Source: a virus
DNA: 5,230 nt
IMG/VR virus record: IMGVR_UViG_3300029996_000156
Location: 1 to 5,230 of that record
Direction: 5' to 3' (one strand)
Shown one piece after another: positions 1-5,230 of this stretch. The translations under genes were made by a program, and so were the position numbers. Numbering within the stretch: position 1 is the stretch's first letter; each line of letters starts with the position of its first letter. The notes beneath the pieces were generated by a model. That model saw nothing but the letters and a program-made list of their open reading frames with translations. It was not told the origin of the DNA and did no database searches.

Positions 1-69
1 ATCCCCAAGTCCGTGAAGCAGGTAAGTGCCTTAGAATACGATACAGAGCAGATTATTAGTAAGCAATAA
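1..69 (+). CDS. Duplicated 3' end of the Zot-like ATPase gene (the same bases as 5143-5211). It is a circular-overlap artefact, not a separate gene.
   Basis: Frame 1 reads IPKSVKQVSALEYDTEQIISKQ then TAA at 67-69, identical to the C-terminus of ORF 4597-5211. Confidence 0.9.
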   Translation: MPKSVKQVSALEYDTEQIISKQ

Positions 70-88
70 GTTGCTTCGTTTTGTTGCG
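1..88. repeat. Terminal direct repeat, copy 1 (identical to 5143-5230), consistent with a circular assembly overlap
   Basis: Direct base-by-base comparison: atccccaagtccgtgaag...cgttttgttgcg occurs at both window ends. Confidence 0.97.
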
Positions 89-1214: not shown

Positions 1215-1769
1215 ATGTCTGAGAAACAATCAAGAAATTTTCTTGGTGTGTTGTACCCAGATTCTACCACTTATGACTGTGATAAAGTTCTAAATCGTAT
1301 CGAAGACGCTTTTACCGAATACGCCTATATCTTACATGACATGGATACTGATGAAAATGGGGAGTTGAAAAAAGCTCATTATCATTGGTGCGGTAAACGC
1401 TCTACTCCTGCTCCTATATCGACCGTAGCAAATGCTTTGGGCGTGGAACAAAATTCTATTGAGTTCTGTAAACGCTGGATGTCTTCGCTCCGGTATTTGG
1501 TACATGCAGACAACCAAGAAAAACACCAATATTCGCTGGATGACTTGTCTGCTAACTTTGATTGCGAGAACATCGTCGGAAAATCTGAAACTTACAAAAG
1601 TCGCCAAATTTTTGAACACATTAAAGATAATCCATCCGAGAGTTATACCGCGCTTACTGCATGGTGCTTCGAGAATAATTTATGGAGCGAGTTTCGCCGC
1701 TCATTTTCTGTTTGGGCAAATCTCCTGCGGGAGTTAAATTATTTTGATTCATTACAAAAAAAGGAGTAA
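1215..1769 (+). CDS. rep: Rolling-circle replication initiator, HUH endonuclease of the pMV158 RepB (Rep_2) type
   Basis: Motif-level match to RepB recalled from memory: FLGVLYPDS (compare FTFLLYPES), LHDMD acidic/His metal-ligand region, KKAHYHW HUH motif (H55-Y-H57, nt 1377-1385), and LRYLVHADNQEKHQYSLDDL with candidate catalytic Tyr94 (nt 1494-1496). The RBS sits 7 nt upstream of the ATG. Confidence 0.88.
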   Translation: MSEKQSRNFLGVLYPDSTTYDCDKVLNRIEDAFTEYAYILHDMDTDENGELKKAHYHWCGKRSTPAPISTVANALGVEQNSIEFCKRWMSSLRYLVHADNQEKHQYSLDDLSANFDCENIVGKSETYKSRQIFEHIKDNPSESYTALTAWCFENNLWSEFRRSFSVWANLLRELNYFDSLQKKE

Positions 1770-1775
1770 AAAAAA

Positions 1776-1976
1776 ATGAAAATTACCTGTGTCGACGTTG
1801 TCAATGGTTACACAAAAAAGGGCACTCCCTTTGTGCATGGCGCTTTCCGTGGTGTTGGTAAGTCCGGTTCTCCGTTCCTGTTCGTTGCAAACTGTCCGCC
1901 CGACTATGAGCCGCTTAAAGATTATGATGCTCGCGTCATTTTCTCCCCTCAAGGCAACTTTATTTTGCCTTACTGA
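1776..1976 (+). CDS. 66-aa protein, a candidate ssDNA-binding (gene V-like) protein by position only
   Basis: AAGGAG RBS (1761-1766) 9 nt before the ATG. It follows rep directly, as gV follows gII in Ff phages, and its small size suits an OB-fold. No sequence motif was recognised. Confidence 0.7.
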   Translation: MKITCVDVVNGYTKKGTPFVHGAFRGVGKSGSPFLFVANCPPDYEPLKDYDARVIFSPQGNFILPY

Positions 1977-1984
1977 TTTTTTAT

Positions 1985-2058
1985 CGCGGGGTGGTGCAAC
2001 GGTAGCACGTCAGTCTCTGAAACTGAAACTGCTGGTTCGAGTCCAGACCCCGCAACCA
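1985..2058 (+). tRNA. tRNA-Gln, anticodon CUG, with encoded CCA
   Basis: Manual cloverleaf. Acceptor stem 1985-1991 / 2048-2054, 6 of 7 pairs with C1.A72 unpaired. U8. D stem GTGC/GCAC with loop AACGGTA (A14, G18, G19, A21). Anticodon stem TCAGT/ACTGA with loop CTCTGAA (U33, anticodon CTG at 2017-2019, A37). A 4-nt variable loop. T stem GCTGG/CCAGA with one G.A mismatch, and T loop TTCGAGT. Discriminator A, then CCA (2056-2058). Confidence 0.8.
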
Positions 2059-2105: not shown

Positions 2106-3281
2106 GTGAAGAAAAAGCAGCGGTGCTTGGTTAAGCGCTTCGCCGCCCTTGTCGCGGCTCTGATGGTTTCTCTTTCTTTGTGTACTCCTTGTTTTGCTTC
2201 TGGCACGGAAATTGTTATGCCGTCTTTGGATGACTTTTATAAGCACCATGGTTCTTGGTTTGTTTGGCGTAAGCTTGTTTCTCACGGCATAGATTGTTTT
2301 GAGCTTCTTTGCTCTCCTATTTCTGTTTCTGGCTCTTCTTATACATTGCCGTATTCTATTTCTTATTCTACGGATGCGTTTGATGTTTCTTATTTGGCTA
2401 ACGATTCTGGCTTAGCTTATGATTATGCTTGCGCTTTTCCTTATCCTCTTCGCGGTGCTTCTGGTCTTTGGTCTGAACTTCCCTCTTTTCCTGTTGGTTT
2501 TGGTTTTTCCCCTCAAACTTCTGTTGTCCGCGTTTATTCTACTTCTGCTCAACCCTCTGGAACTTATGGCTTTTTAACTTCTTCTTTTAGCCGTTCAGAC
2601 CGTATTCTTTCTTTCGGTAATACTGCCGGTTCTTCTTCTGGCTCTTCTACTGATACTTTAGATTCTTTCACTTTTTCTTCCCCCTTTTATTCATATCCTT
2701 TTGCTATTCGTTATTCTACTTCTTCTTCTGCAAGCGGCTATGTTTTACAGGGTGGTGATTCTTCGTTTATTGTTCCTCCTAATGCTTATTCTAATTTGAT
2801 GCAAATAAATCTTAATTCTAATCGTTATCTTTTGGGAACTCATTCTTTTGTTCCTTATCCGTCCGGATATACTATTCCATCTTCTGATATCGGTTTTGTT
2901 TTTGTGAAAAAGCCTTCTTCCTCCCCTGTTTATTCTGCTTCTGCCTTTGATACTACCGCTTCTTTCGCTTTTTCTCTCCTTGTTCCTGCTTCTCTTTTGC
3001 CTGACGTTAAGCTTGGTGCCTGGCTTTCCGACTCGCCTGAGGATTTGCAGAAAGTTATTACTGATGAATTTGACATAGATTCTGATACCCTGAAAGAGTC
3101 TAAAGATTTATTGAATTCGTTTAAAAATTCTTCTTCTGTTGATAAAGATGTTGCTGCGGGCGCTTCTGGTCTTCTTGGCGCTATTTTTCAGAATTTAGGC
3201 ACGTTTCTCTTTTCCGTTTCTCTCCTTTGCTTTGGTGCTGTTTTTCTCCGAATTCTTATTAGAAAGGCGGTCGACGGATGA
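2106..3281 (+). CDS. 391-aa secreted, Ser-rich, C-terminally membrane-anchored protein: a candidate pIII-like adsorption/minor coat protein
   Basis: GTG start with an AAGGTGG RBS (2092-2098) 7 nt upstream. The Sec signal is MKKKQRCLVKRFAALVAALMVSLSLCTPCFA/SG. The body is long, Ser/Phe/Tyr-rich and of low complexity. A C-terminal TM segment (FLFSVSLLCFGAVFLRILI) is followed by RK. It is the largest ORF in the morphogenesis block. Confidence 0.8.
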   Translation: MKKKQRCLVKRFAALVAALMVSLSLCTPCFASGTEIVMPSLDDFYKHHGSWFVWRKLVSHGIDCFELLCSPISVSGSSYTLPYSISYSTDAFDVSYLANDSGLAYDYACAFPYPLRGASGLWSELPSFPVGFGFSPQTSVVRVYSTSAQPSGTYGFLTSSFSRSDRILSFGNTAGSSSGSSTDTLDSFTFSSPFYSYPFAIRYSTSSSASGYVLQGGDSSFIVPPNAYSNLMQINLNSNRYLLGTHSFVPYPSGYTIPSSDIGFVFVKKPSSSPVYSASAFDTTASFAFSLLVPASLLPDVKLGAWLSDSPEDLQKVITDEFDIDSDTLKESKDLLNSFKNSSSVDKDVAAGASGLLGAIFQNLGTFLFSVSLLCFGAVFLRILIRKAVDG

Positions 3282-3409
3282 GCTTTATTGACTTCTTCAA
3301 GTCCGTTTTCGGGCGTTTTGGTTCCGGTGGTGCGCTTGTTATCACTGTTGTCGTTTTCCTCGTAGCTCTTGGTATCTACAAATTTGTAAAGGATTTGTTG
3401 CCATGGTAG
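3278..3409 (+). CDS. 43-aa single-TM protein (MSFIDFFKSVFGRFGSGGALVITVVVFLVALGIYKFVKDLLPW), a coat-protein candidate
   Basis: Its ATG overlaps the upstream TGA (ATGA at 3278-3281). It has an amphipathic N-terminus, a hydrophobic core and a K-containing C-terminus. It falls below the ORF-track length cutoff and was translated by hand. Confidence 0.6.
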   Translation: MSFIDFFKSVFGRFGSGGALVITVVVFLVALGIYKFVKDLLPW

Positions 3410-3570
3410 ACTTTGTTTCGACTCTTGCTGTTGTGACATCGTTTATTGCGAATGTTCTTAACCTTTCTTTTTTCGGTTTCGGCACTTTTGGTACAGTTGT
3501 CCTTATCTTTCTTCTGCTTTCGCTTGTTGGTTTTGTTCTTCGTGCCATTTGGGATGGGGGTGATAAATGA
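3403..3570 (+). CDS. 55-aa hydrophobic membrane protein (MVDFVSTLAVVTSFIANVLNLSFFGFGTFGTVVLIFLLLSLVGFVLRAIWDGGDK)
   Basis: Its ATG overlaps the preceding TGG-TAG (ATGGTAG at 3403-3409), and its stop overlaps the next ATG (ATGA at 3567-3570). It has two hydrophobic segments. Translated by hand. Confidence 0.55.
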   Translation: MVDFVSTLAVVTSFIANVLNLSFFGFGTFGTVVLIFLLLSLVGFVLRAIWDGGDK

Positions 3571-4181
3571 TGGAAGTCCCTGTTGTTATCAAAACTTGGG
3601 TTGATTCTGACGGCGTTACCGTCTACACAGTGCAGTATAAAGATGGCAGTACTTGTGATATGACCGTCCAGCAGTATGATTATCTTAAGGCGTCTGCGCA
3701 GGCTGTCGCCGATTTGGACTCTAAAGCCGCTTCTGATTCTTCCTTGGAAGCTTCTCCTGCTCCTGAGGACCCCGCGCAGAATATTACAGAATCTCCTGAC
3801 CTCCGTGATGGCTATGTGCCGGAGGAAGTTGAATTGCCTTTTGAGGGGAGCTTGACCGCTTATGATGACCGCGCCGCAGATACTCCGGCTCTGTATGCTA
3901 ATCTCCCTAACGTCTCTAATAGTTTCACTGCTATTATGGATTGGTTCGGTGATACGTTTTTCATCGAACGCACTGAGACGGTTCACAAGTCCGGTTATAC
4001 GTCCGAAAGGTATTCCTATAACAGTTCGACTCAACTTATTCAGCTCCCTTATGAGGAAGATTCCATTACTACATCTCAAGTTCTCAACCCGCAAGCTTGC
4101 GTTTCTGCTTTGCTTGTTGTCCTTGTTTTTGTCACTACTGTTACATGGATTAAAAACGCGATTTGGGGGCGCATGAGCTGA
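3567..4181 (+). CDS. 204-aa acidic protein with a single C-terminal TM anchor and no signal peptide, function unknown
   Basis: ATGA overlap with the upstream ORF and TGATG overlap with the downstream ORF. C-terminal TM segment ACVSALLVVLVFVTTVTWI. The antisense 250-aa ORF (3342-4094) is Arg-rich and lacks an RBS. Confidence 0.72.
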   Translation: MMEVPVVIKTWVDSDGVTVYTVQYKDGSTCDMTVQQYDYLKASAQAVADLDSKAASDSSLEASPAPEDPAQNITESPDLRDGYVPEEVELPFEGSLTAYDDRAADTPALYANLPNVSNSFTAIMDWFGDTFFIERTETVHKSGYTSERYSYNSSTQLIQLPYEEDSITTSQVLNPQACVSALLVVLVFVTTVTWIKNAIWGRMS

Positions 4182-4294
4182 TGGAATTTCTTCCCTTGCA
4201 GTATTGTTTCGGTATCTTTTCTGTCCCCGAAATTGGCTATTTTATTATCTTTGCTGCTGTTTTTTCTATGTTGGTTCTCCTGCTCCGTCCGTGA
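4181..4294 (+). CDS. 37-aa hydrophobic peptide (MEFLPLQYCFGIFSVPEIGYFIIFAAVFSMLVLLLRP), similar in size to pVII/pIX minor virion proteins
   Basis: Its ATG shares one base with the upstream TGA (TGATG at 4179-4183). Translated by hand. The call rests only on coupling, size and hydrophobicity. Confidence 0.45.
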   Translation: MEFLPLQYCFGIFSVPEIGYFIIFAAVFSMLVLLLRP

Positions 4295-4394
4295 CAGGTG
4301 CCATAAAAATCTTATGAAAGGATGATGACTTCAGGGCCCTACTGCTTCTATTCTTGCCACGCTGCTTTCCTTGGTCGGTGAGTTTTTCACGTCG

Positions 4395-4523
4395 ATGATT
4401 ACTTGGATGGGTCAGCTCATTGATTTCTATGAGTCTCAGCCCATTCTCCTTGTCTTCGTGATTCTCACTATCGCGGGCATCGTTCTCCGTATCCTCCGCC
4501 GCTGGATTCCCGGTCGTTCCTAA
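4395..4523 (+). CDS. Major coat protein candidate (Pf3-like, no signal peptide): MITWMGQLIDFYESQPILLVFVILTIAGIVLRILRRWIPGRS. The start codon is uncertain.
   Basis: It has an acidic N-terminus, a hydrophobic core and a basic C-terminus (4 Arg in the last 11 residues), the classic inovirus coat layout. A strong terminator follows directly, as it does after Ff gene VIII. The frame stays open and coding-like back to 4329, and the RBS before ATG 4395 is weak (GGTGAG, 12 nt away). Confidence 0.5.
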   Translation: MITWMGQLIDFYESQPILLVFVILTIAGIVLRILRRWIPGRS

Positions 4524-4533
4524 CGATTGAGAG

Positions 4534-4572
4534 AAAACGCCGCCGACCATTTTTAATGGTCGGCGACGTTTT
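4534..4572 (+). terminator. Long hairpin terminator or attenuator between the coat cluster and the assembly ATPase gene
   Basis: AAAACGcCGCCGACCAT-tttta-ATGGTCGGCGaCGTTTT gives 17 positions with one C.A mismatch, including a perfect 10-bp GC-rich core (4541-4550 / 4556-4565) and a trailing T run. The zot RBS GAAAGGA starts at 4581. Confidence 0.65.
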
Positions 4573-4596
4573 CGCATTTAGAAAGGATTATATGTT

Positions 4597-5211
4597 ATGC
4601 TTTATGGTATTCTTGTCTTTTGCATTTGTTGGCTTTTTGTTTATATCGATAGCTATTGCAAAAACCCCTACAAACTTGAGGCTGTTGTTGGTTCAAAAGG
4701 CTCTGGCAAGTCTTTGTATATGTCTCGTGTTGCTGATAAGTGGCTACGTGCTAATAAGGGGCTTATCTATAGTAATATGGGTATTGGTTACGAGTTAGAG
4801 CCGGAATACTGGAAACAGACCTTTATTCCTGATTCCCTTATTCTCATTGACGAAATTGGCGTGCTGCACTCTAATCGTGATTTTAAAACTATGCCCCGTG
4901 AAGCTGTCGAGTTTTTCAAGATGCAGCGCAAATATCATTTGACGATTATTGTATCGTCTCAGACCATGGACTTTGATAAAAAGATACGTGACCTTTGTGA
5001 CCGCATTTACCTCTGCAACCGCATTGGCTGGTTCTGCCGTCTTACTCCCTATCGCTCCTGTATCGCTATGGAACATCGGCCCGAGGGCGGCCAAGAGCTC
5101 GTCAACACGGTGCGCAAGGCAGGTCGGGCAAGGTGGTATACCATCCCCAAGTCCGTGAAGCAGGTAAGTGCCTTAGAATACGATACAGAGCAGATTATTA
5201 GTAAGCAATAA
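4597..5211 (+). CDS. Zot / pI-family morphogenesis ATPase (P-loop NTPase)
   Basis: Walker A GSKGSGKS, Walker B-like SLILIDE, and an N-terminal hydrophobic helix MLYGILVFCICWLFVYI. The GAAAGGA RBS ends 9 nt before the ATG. TAA stop at 5209-5211. Confidence 0.88.
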   Translation: MLYGILVFCICWLFVYIDSYCKNPYKLEAVVGSKGSGKSLYMSRVADKWLRANKGLIYSNMGIGYELEPEYWKQTFIPDSLILIDEIGVLHSNRDFKTMPREAVEFFKMQRKYHLTIIVSSQTMDFDKKIRDLCDRIYLCNRIGWFCRLTPYRSCIAMEHRPEGGQELVNTVRKAGRARWYTIPKSVKQVSALEYDTEQIISKQ

Positions 5212-5230
5212 GTTGCTTCGTTTTGTTGCG
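5143..5230. repeat. Terminal direct repeat, copy 2 (identical to 1-88)
   Basis: Same 88-bp string as 1-88, at an offset of 5142 bp. Confidence 0.97.

What the first reader, a model, noticed from the sequence alone, without database searches (positions are those of the whole stretch)
1985..2058. Full-length tRNA-Gln(CUG) inside a 5.1-kb filamentous-phage genome, with a CAA/CAG codon split on either side
A complete cloverleaf with the conserved positions U8, A14, G18, G19, U33, the T-loop TTCGAGT and an encoded CCA lies on the coding strand between the replication module and the morphogenesis module. tRNA genes are typical of large dsDNA phages, and I know of no described precedent in a genome this small, where every base is at a premium. 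My hand count of Gln codons gives rep plus the 66-aa gene (upstream of the tRNA) 7 CAA and 0 CAG. The six ORFs downstream (2106-5211) give 18 CAG and 8 CAA. The tRNA decodes exactly the codon the late genes prefer, so it may supplement a host that relies mainly on tRNA-Gln(UUG). Four other readings are possible. It could be an attP copy of a host tRNA-Gln used for integration, although no integrase is encoded, which would imply Rep-mediated or host Xer-mediated integration. It could be an RNase P/Z processing point that splits early and late mRNA. It could replace a host tRNA cleaved by an anticodon-nuclease defence. The unpaired C1.A72 and G49.A65 positions could also be identity determinants, since tRNA-Gln normally has a weak 1-72 pair, or signs of decay.
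Basis: partly seen in the sequence, partly recalled or inferred. Interest (0 to 1): 0.8.

Follow-up and report, generated by a model that had tools for sequence, protein, structure and literature searches.

The report
Phage tRNA that starts at CAG
This 5.1-kb filamentous gut phage carries a genuine tRNA whose acceptor end looks like an initiator tRNA but whose anticodon is CUG, and its coat-protein gene begins at a matching CAG instead of ATG, so the phage appears to bring its own start-codon reader, which I could not find described for any natural system.

Summary
The tRNA at 1985-2058 is real: ARAGORN calls Gln(CUG) and Rfam tRNA scores 54.7 bits against a cutoff of 29. In 28 distinct relatives, 13 of 21 cloverleaf pairs show compensatory changes. 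It is not a one-off. 39 related small inovirus genomes carry a tRNA(CTG), always on the coding strand.

The body resembles cellular tRNA-Gln, but the acceptor end does not. Position 1:72 is mismatched in 28/28 phage copies (73/74 cellular tRNA-Gln are paired) and the discriminator is A73, not G73. Among 77 cellular look-alikes, the only tRNAs outside inovirus-like elements with that combination are two genuine CAU initiators.

The putative major coat gene has no usable ATG, GTG or TTG. A conserved Shine-Dalgarno sequence (GAAAGGA, 4316-4322) is followed nine bases later by an invariant CAG (4332), just after in-frame TGATGA. The following 21 codons evolve as coding sequence.

Anticodon and start codon co-vary: CUG/CAG in four lineages, CGU/ACG in one, CUA/UAG in one. 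tRNA-less relatives use canonical starts. A predicted tRNA(CUG) was then found in a further lineage. Tailed phages with a CCU version start head, terminase and tail genes at AGG.

Best explanation: a phage-encoded initiator-type tRNA. The codon-supply and attP readings are not supported. All evidence is computational.

The parts
1985..2058 (+). tRNA with anticodon CUG (34-36 at 2017-2019). It has a tRNA-Gln-like body, a C1.A72 mismatch, G2-C71, C3-G70, discriminator A73 and an encoded CCA.
   Evidence: ARAGORN. Rfam RF00005 54.7 bits. Covariation in 28 homologs, with 1:72 unpaired in 28/28. Contrast with cellular tRNA-Gln.
1982..1984 (+). Invariant TAT immediately 5' of the tRNA (U at -1). I infer it is context for RNase P processing.
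   Evidence: Invariant in all 9 sequences of alignment A1 and also present in L368. The function is inferred, not tested.
4316..4322 (+). Shine-Dalgarno sequence GAAAGGA for the coat-like gene. Nine bases separate it from the CAG.
   Evidence: 4316-4321 are invariant in 40 relatives; 4322 is A or G.
4323..4328 (+). In-frame TGATGA double stop that closes the coat reading frame just upstream of the CAG. Only one codon (CTT) lies between it and the CAG.
   Evidence: Sequence. At least one in-frame TGA is kept in all relatives.
4332..4334 (+). CAG, the proposed start codon, complementary to the tRNA anticodon CUG.
   Evidence: Invariant in 40/40 relatives. Indels directly after it come in multiples of 3. 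No ATG, GTG or TTG lies between the upstream stop and residue 8, where the ATG-started homolog L165 begins to align.
4332..4523 (+). Putative major coat protein gene: 63 codons plus TAA, QGPTASILATLLSLVGEFFTSMITWMGQLIDFYESQPILLVFVILTIAGIVLRILRRWIPGRS. It has a hydrophobic helix and a basic C-terminal tail.
   Evidence: It is the only frame open in 40/40 relatives. Synonymous:nonsynonymous changes in 4335-4394 are 118:91, against 43:147 and 0:187 in the shifted frames. It is homologous to the ATG-started coat of L165. Gene callers miss it and it matches no PHROG family. The coat role is inferred from size, shape and position.
1215..1769 (+). Rep protein (Rep_OBD), part of the mosaic replication module that is not co-inherited with the tRNA.
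   Evidence: Pfam PF01719, E = 5e-21. Only L112 shares it. Homology to 33 relatives is 0 over 900-1980.
1776..1976 (+). 66-aa gene of the replication module. It ends 8 nt before the tRNA.
   Evidence: ORF list. No family hit.
2106..3281 (+). 391-aa structural protein, possibly for adsorption. It is the first protein gene of the conserved morphogenesis block and has a canonical SD+GTG start.
   Evidence: phrog_24417, E = 1e-185. ORF list.
4597..5211 (+). Zot-like (pI) morphogenesis ATPase.
   Evidence: Pfam PF05707, E = 9e-6. 94-100% identical in 37 IMG/VR genomes.
1..88 (.). Terminal direct repeat, identical to 5143-5230, marking a circular 5142-nt genome.
   Evidence: the repeat finder family D2, 100% identity.

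Best explanation
The tRNA is a phage-encoded initiator-type tRNA. It has the body of a bacterial tRNA-Gln(CUG), but its acceptor end has been converted to the initiator design: a mismatch at 1:72 with G2-C71, C3-G70 and A73.

Proposed steps (all inferred):
1. It is transcribed with the phage genes and cut out by RNase P.
2. It is aminoacylated, probably with Gln or Glu through its CUG anticodon.
3. It is formylated by host Fmt, and the 1:72 mismatch keeps it away from EF-Tu.
4. It is placed in the ribosomal P site on the CAG at 4332, which sits nine bases after a strong Shine-Dalgarno sequence.

That CAG is the start codon of the phage's only recognisable major coat protein gene, which has no usable ATG, GTG or TTG. 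Coat synthesis would therefore depend on the phage's own tRNA.

Shown here: the tRNA is real and under structural selection. Its acceptor signature separates it from cellular tRNA-Gln and matches initiators. The coat frame is translated from at or next to the CAG. Anticodon and start codon co-vary across lineages.

Inferred: expression and processing, charging, formylation, P-site use, and the identity of the N-terminal residue.
For: (1) Acceptor signature. 1:72 is non-Watson-Crick in 28/28 distinct phage tRNAs (G.A, C.A, A.A, U.C), while 2:71 is G-C and 3:70 is C-G in 28/28. Of 77 cellular tRNAs sharing the same 5' body, 74 have a paired 1:72. Among the 74 tRNA-Gln calls, 73 are paired and 69 have G73. 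The three exceptions with a mismatch plus A73 are two genuine CAU initiators (L227, L244) and one CUG copy in an inovirus-like contig (L210). PMC6393288 states that the 1x72 mismatch with the 2-71 and 3-70 pairs drives Fmt recognition, avoidance of EF-Tu and resistance to Pth.

(2) Start site. GAAAGG(A/G)TGATGAYTT-CAG is conserved in 40 relatives and the CAG is invariant. In-frame TGA lies just upstream. Indels after the CAG are multiples of 3. It is the only frame open in 40/40 relatives, and synonymous:nonsynonymous changes are 118:91 in frame against 43:147 and 0:187 out of frame. Met1 of the ATG-started homolog L165 aligns to residue 8, which is 14 residues upstream of the window's first ATG.

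(3) Covariation of anticodon and start codon.
- CUG with SD+CAG in the window group, L001 and L002.
- CGU with SD+ACG in L007 and L008.
- CUA with AGGAGGTG+6 nt+TAG in L201.
Each site opens a coat-like ORF.

(4) Negative control. Roughly 20 tRNA-less relatives (tallied by eye from the listing) start their coat genes at SD+ATG, GTG or TTG. L009 has TTG-ACG where L007 has TTA-ACG.

(5) Prediction fulfilled. The L188/L193 fragments have SD+CAG coat starts but no tRNA on the fragment. The one longer contig of that lineage (L368) carries a tRNA(CTG) with C1.A72 and A73.

(6) Independent parallel. Tailed-phage contigs of about 30 kb carry the same tRNA design with anticodon CCU. Their major head protein, large terminase, major tail protein and other ORFs follow SD-TAA-AGG. 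AGG is the top orphan SD-positioned codon there (15, next best 9) and is outside the ten commonest in 8 control phage loci.

(7) Linkage. The recombination junction lies exactly at the tRNA 5' end, so the tRNA is inherited with the coat module.

(8) Experimental precedent. E. coli initiator tRNA with a CUA anticodon initiates at UAG and was reported to be charged mainly with Gln (bioRxiv 10.1101/524249). From my memory of the E. coli sequence, it has the same acceptor end as the window's tRNA (C1.A72, G2-C71, C3-G70, A73).
Against: Everything here is computational. Expression, charging, formylation and the N-terminus of the coat protein have not been observed.

The three consecutive G-C pairs of canonical initiators are not conserved. 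29:41 is A-U in 24/28. 30:40 is G-C in 13 and C-G in 13. The window's own stem is au/GC/ua. In E. coli, 3GC mutants and a mid-CG variant fail to initiate (PMC6393288, PMC5389676), although au/GC/GC initiators occur naturally and G30-C40 is the critical pair. The 3GC stem in L368 is not diagnostic, because 5/74 cellular tRNA-Gln have it too.

11:24 is U-A, the elongator type; that A11-U24 is the initiator form is from my memory of E. coli.

An ATG or GTG is conserved at 4395 with a weak GGTGAG upstream, so a shorter product could be made as well.

In L201 a TTG lies directly before the TAG, which allows a 'TTG start plus UAG suppression' reading for that one genome.

The host is not identified beyond hints of Clostridia/Lachnospiraceae, so the rules of its Fmt, IF3 and Gln-charging pathway are unknown.

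My attempted genome-wide specificity statistic was noisy.
Confidence: 0.7

Rival explanations
1. Elongator tRNA-Gln(CUG) that supplements the host's supply for the CAG-rich late genes.
For: Late genes use CAG 19: CAA 8 and early genes use 0: 7, p = 0.0012. The tRNA body is clearly of the tRNA-Gln type.
Against: The 1:72 mismatch and A73 are kept in all phage copies, whereas 73/74 cellular tRNA-Gln are paired at 1:72 and 69 have G73. That mismatch disfavours EF-Tu binding (PMC6393288). AAA/AAG shows the same early/late shift, and the Rep module is a recent mosaic swap. L007 lacks this tRNA yet uses CAG 20: CAA 10. L007's own tRNA(CGU) matches its rarest Thr codon, 4/60. Clostridia in the scan already encode tRNA-Gln(CUG). 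This reading does not explain an invariant CAG at SD+9 of a gene with no canonical start.
Confidence: 0.1
2. attP: a copy of a host tRNA-Gln used as the site for chromosomal integration.
For: Some inoviruses integrate at tRNA genes; Ino-06 at a tRNA-Lys locus is one example (PMC8530359). The tRNA resembles cellular tRNA-Gln.
Against: No integrase or recombinase is encoded. All 5 contigs carrying the exact 204-aa protein are 5-10 kb and none is chromosomal. The gene is full-length. It varies among 94-100%-identical phages by compensatory changes, which an att core would not tolerate. It differs systematically from cellular tRNA-Gln at positions 1 and 73. Sister phages have CGU or CUA anticodons on the same body.
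Confidence: 0.03
3. Replacement or decoy for a host tRNA that is cleaved by an anticodon-nuclease defence, or a processing punctuation mark (RNase P/Z site) that separates early from late mRNA.
For: The tRNA sits exactly at the junction of the replication and morphogenesis modules. Phage tRNAs that evade tRNA-targeting defences are documented (PMC10264068). Anticodon loops in the family are unusually variable: G33 in L068, C33 and C37 in L201, U37 in L007.
Against: Neither idea predicts that the anticodon should match a non-canonical start codon in six lineages. Neither predicts that 1:72 must stay mismatched. In L002 the tRNA lies directly upstream of the coat gene, not at an early/late boundary. 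A processing role could still exist alongside initiation.
Confidence: 0.07
4. The coat gene starts at the conserved ATG/GTG at 4395, read by the host initiator. The upstream 21 codons would be conserved for another reason, and the CAG match would be coincidence.
For: ATG or GTG is present at 4395 in all 40 relatives, with a weak GGTGAG 12 nt upstream.
Against: The upstream 21 codons show a coding pattern of change. Of 20 sites at each codon position, 10, 6 and 17 vary at positions 1, 2 and 3, and synonymous:nonsynonymous changes are 118:91 in frame only. Indels there are in multiples of 3. The ATG-started homolog L165 covers residues 8-21. Coincidence would have to recur with ACG, TAG and three further CAG lineages.
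Confidence: 0.07

Closest known systems
Bacterial initiator tRNA-fMet (anticodon CAU)
   Same: A non-Watson-Crick 1:72 (C1.A72 in the window), G2-C71, C3-G70, A73 and CCA. In E. coli these acceptor-end features direct formylation, exclude EF-Tu and protect against Pth (PMC6393288). The matching codon sits at SD+9 of a gene.
   Different: The anticodon is CUG, not the CAU found in every natural initiator I know of. The body (D arm, T arm) is of the tRNA-Gln type. The three G-C anticodon-stem pairs are not conserved. 11:24 is U-A.
Engineered non-AUG initiator tRNAs: the amber initiator i-tRNA(CUA), i-tRNA(AAC), and amber-initiator phage biocontainment
   Same: The logic is the same: an initiator acceptor end plus a changed anticodon gives initiation at the complementary non-AUG codon. 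The CUA version starts at UAG and was reported to be charged mainly with Gln (bioRxiv 10.1101/524249, 10.1101/2021.05.25.445580). An engineered phage made dependent on such a tRNA has been proposed (bioRxiv 10.1101/2024.07.29.605542). L201 looks like a natural UAG/CUA counterpart.
   Different: Those are laboratory constructs derived from tRNA-fMet and keep the 3GC stem. This one is natural, phage-encoded, built on a tRNA-Gln body, and the dependent gene is the phage's own coat gene.
Cellular elongator tRNA-Gln(CUG) of Clostridia, Patescibacteria and others
   Same: Nearly the same acceptor stem at positions 2-7 (GCGGGG/CCCCGC), D arm (GGUGYAAYGGUAGCAC), anticodon loop and length. It is probably the evolutionary source.
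   Different: Cellular copies have U1-A72 or A1-U72 (73/74) and G73 (69/74). Phage copies always have a mismatch and mostly have A73.
Phage-encoded suppressor tRNAs that accompany stop-codon recoding of late genes in crAss-like and Lak phages
   Same: A phage-borne tRNA with an unusual anticodon makes virion or late genes readable only when the phage tRNA is present. This may act as a timing or containment device.
   Different: Those act in elongation at recoded stop codons inside genes. Here the reassigned codon is the start codon, and in the inoviruses a single gene is affected.
Ordinary phage-encoded initiator tRNA(CAU) in large phages
   Same: The same body and acceptor end (CGCGGGG...CCGCAACCA) occur in many IMG/VR phage contigs.
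   Different: Those keep CAU and the GGG/CCC stem, and would serve normal AUG starts.

Membership tests
tRNA (Rfam RF00005) | Cloverleaf scoring above the family's gathering threshold | tested here: met
   54.7 bits against 29, model positions 1-71. ARAGORN call.
tRNA (Rfam RF00005) | Base pairs maintained by compensatory change in homologs | tested here: met
   28 sequences, 92.2% of cells paired, 13/21 pairs changed on both sides, 0/500 shuffles reach this.
Bacterial initiator tRNA | Non-Watson-Crick 1:72 | tested here: met
   C1.A72 in the window. Unpaired in 28/28 homologs, against 1/74 cellular tRNA-Gln calls, and that single exception (L210) lies in an inovirus-like contig.
Bacterial initiator tRNA | G2-C71 and C3-G70 (Fmt determinants) and A73 | tested here: met
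   G-C and C-G in 28/28. A73 in 26/28, with C73 in the two CGU-type copies. Note that 2:71 and 3:70 are shared with cellular tRNA-Gln of this type, so only 1:72 and position 73 discriminate.
Bacterial initiator tRNA | Three consecutive G-C pairs at 29:41, 30:40 and 31:39 | tested here: not met
   The window has A-U/G-C/U-A. Across the family, 29:41 is A-U in 24/28 and 30:40 is G-C in 13 and C-G in 13. L368 has all three, but so do 5/74 cellular tRNA-Gln. The critical G30-C40 (PMC5389676) is present in the window's tRNA.
Bacterial initiator tRNA | Anticodon CAU | tested here: not met
   The anticodon is CUG. This is the point of interest: it works like an initiator but is not a tRNA-fMet.
Bacterial initiator tRNA | Formylation of the attached amino acid, IF2-dependent P-site binding, and exclusion from EF-Tu | not testable with these tools
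   Needs acid-gel northerns, Fmt assays and pull-downs.
Bacterial initiator tRNA | Decodes start codons: the cognate codon sits at SD-appropriate spacing at the head of ORFs | tested here: met
   SD+CAG at 4332 is conserved in 40 relatives. ACG, TAG and AGG counterparts match the CGU, CUA and CCU anticodons. tRNA-less relatives use canonical starts.
Elongator tRNA-Gln | Paired (weak) 1:72 and discriminator G73 | tested here: not met
   Cellular: 73/74 paired and 69/74 G73. Phage: 0/28 paired and 0/28 G73.
Elongator tRNA-Gln | Anticodon YUG with a tRNA-Gln body (D arm, acceptor positions 2-7) | tested here: met
   It shares GCGGGG, GGUGYAAYGGUAGCAC and the CUCUGAA loop with cellular tRNA-Gln.
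Filamentous phage (Tubulavirales) genome | Small circular genome with a rolling-circle Rep, a Zot/pI ATPase and small hydrophobic coat genes on one strand | tested here: met
   5142-nt circle. Rep_OBD and Zot. The nearest GenBank records are 'Inovirus sp.'.
tRNA-type attP site | A site-specific recombinase, plus identity to a host tRNA segment and existence of integrated copies | tested here: not met
   No recombinase. Only 5-10 kb free contigs. The sequence varies and differs from cellular tRNA-Gln at positions 1 and 73.

The most novel reading that the evidence does not exclude
Phages of at least two unrelated kinds (small filamentous ssDNA phages and ~30-kb tailed phages) encode initiator tRNAs whose anticodons are not CAU: CUG, CGU, CUA and CCU. 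They have rewritten the start codons of their virion genes to match: CAG, ACG, UAG and AGG. This would be a natural, virus-borne, orthogonal translation-initiation system. It would be the first natural exception I know of to the rule that initiator tRNAs read AUG-type codons. It would also mean that standard gene callers systematically miss or truncate the most important structural genes of these phages.
Probability: 0.6. Interest if true: 0.95.

Novelty: categorically new. Interest (0 to 1): 0.9.

Why it matters
To my knowledge every natural initiator tRNA carries CAU, and non-AUG initiation is treated as wobble by that one tRNA. A phage that brings an initiator with a different anticodon, and puts its coat gene under a matching codon, would be a new layer of viral control over translation.

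- **Biology.** Virion protein synthesis becomes conditional on a phage RNA. That could serve as a timer, limit toxic coat expression, or isolate the gene from host or competitor expression.
- **Parallel.** It would be the start-codon counterpart of stop-codon recoding in phages.
- **Synthetic biology.** It would be a natural precedent for the orthogonal initiation systems that synthetic biologists have built.
- **Annotation.** The coat gene here is missed by gene callers and is absent from PHROGs. In PQ006129 the equivalent stretch is unannotated. In the tailed phages, the head, terminase and tail genes would be mis-started.
- **Testability.** The system is small (a 5.1-kb genome with one tRNA and one target codon), so the idea can be tested directly.

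Tried and rejected
1. My first reading was that the acceptor stem CGCGGGG/CCCCGCA is itself initiator-specific because it equals E. coli tRNA-fMet. I rejected this. The genome scan showed that cellular tRNA-Gln of many phyla has the same positions 2-7. Only 1:72 and position 73 discriminate.

2. I considered using the 3GC anticodon stem as support. I rejected it as a discriminator. It is not conserved in the family, and 5/74 cellular tRNA-Gln have it.

3. A genome-wide count of 'SD + codon + ORF + upstream stop' for all codons was too noisy, because codons next to real ATG starts also qualify. The refined version is only suggestive for the inoviruses, since the neighbouring CTT scores too. It is clearer for AGG in the tailed phages.

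4. The first viral contigs pattern was too degenerate and mostly returned unrelated large contigs.

5. The search for complete L193-type genomes in IMG/VR found only the two known fragments. The metagenome scan then found one longer contig.

6. L266, a tRNA(CAU) with this body on a 3.5-kb MAG contig, is not an inovirus.

7. A T-box-like or other tRNA-sensing leader upstream of the coat gene: the intergenic region is only about 37 nt, which is too short. I did not pursue it.

8. The mini-ORF ATG-AAA-GGA-TGA (4314-4325) as a reinitiation device: its ATG is not conserved (TAAG, TTTG or TTCG in relatives).

9. ATT at 4350 as a rare start: it is not conserved (ATT, ACT or ATC) and lies 27 nt from the SD.

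10. Host identification was not achieved. There are only hints: a Lachnospiraceae MAG contig (L210) and the CRISPR-based assignment of gut inoviruses to Clostridiales in PMC8530359.

11. Seven literature searches found no prior description. The library lacks most subscription journals, so absence is not proof.
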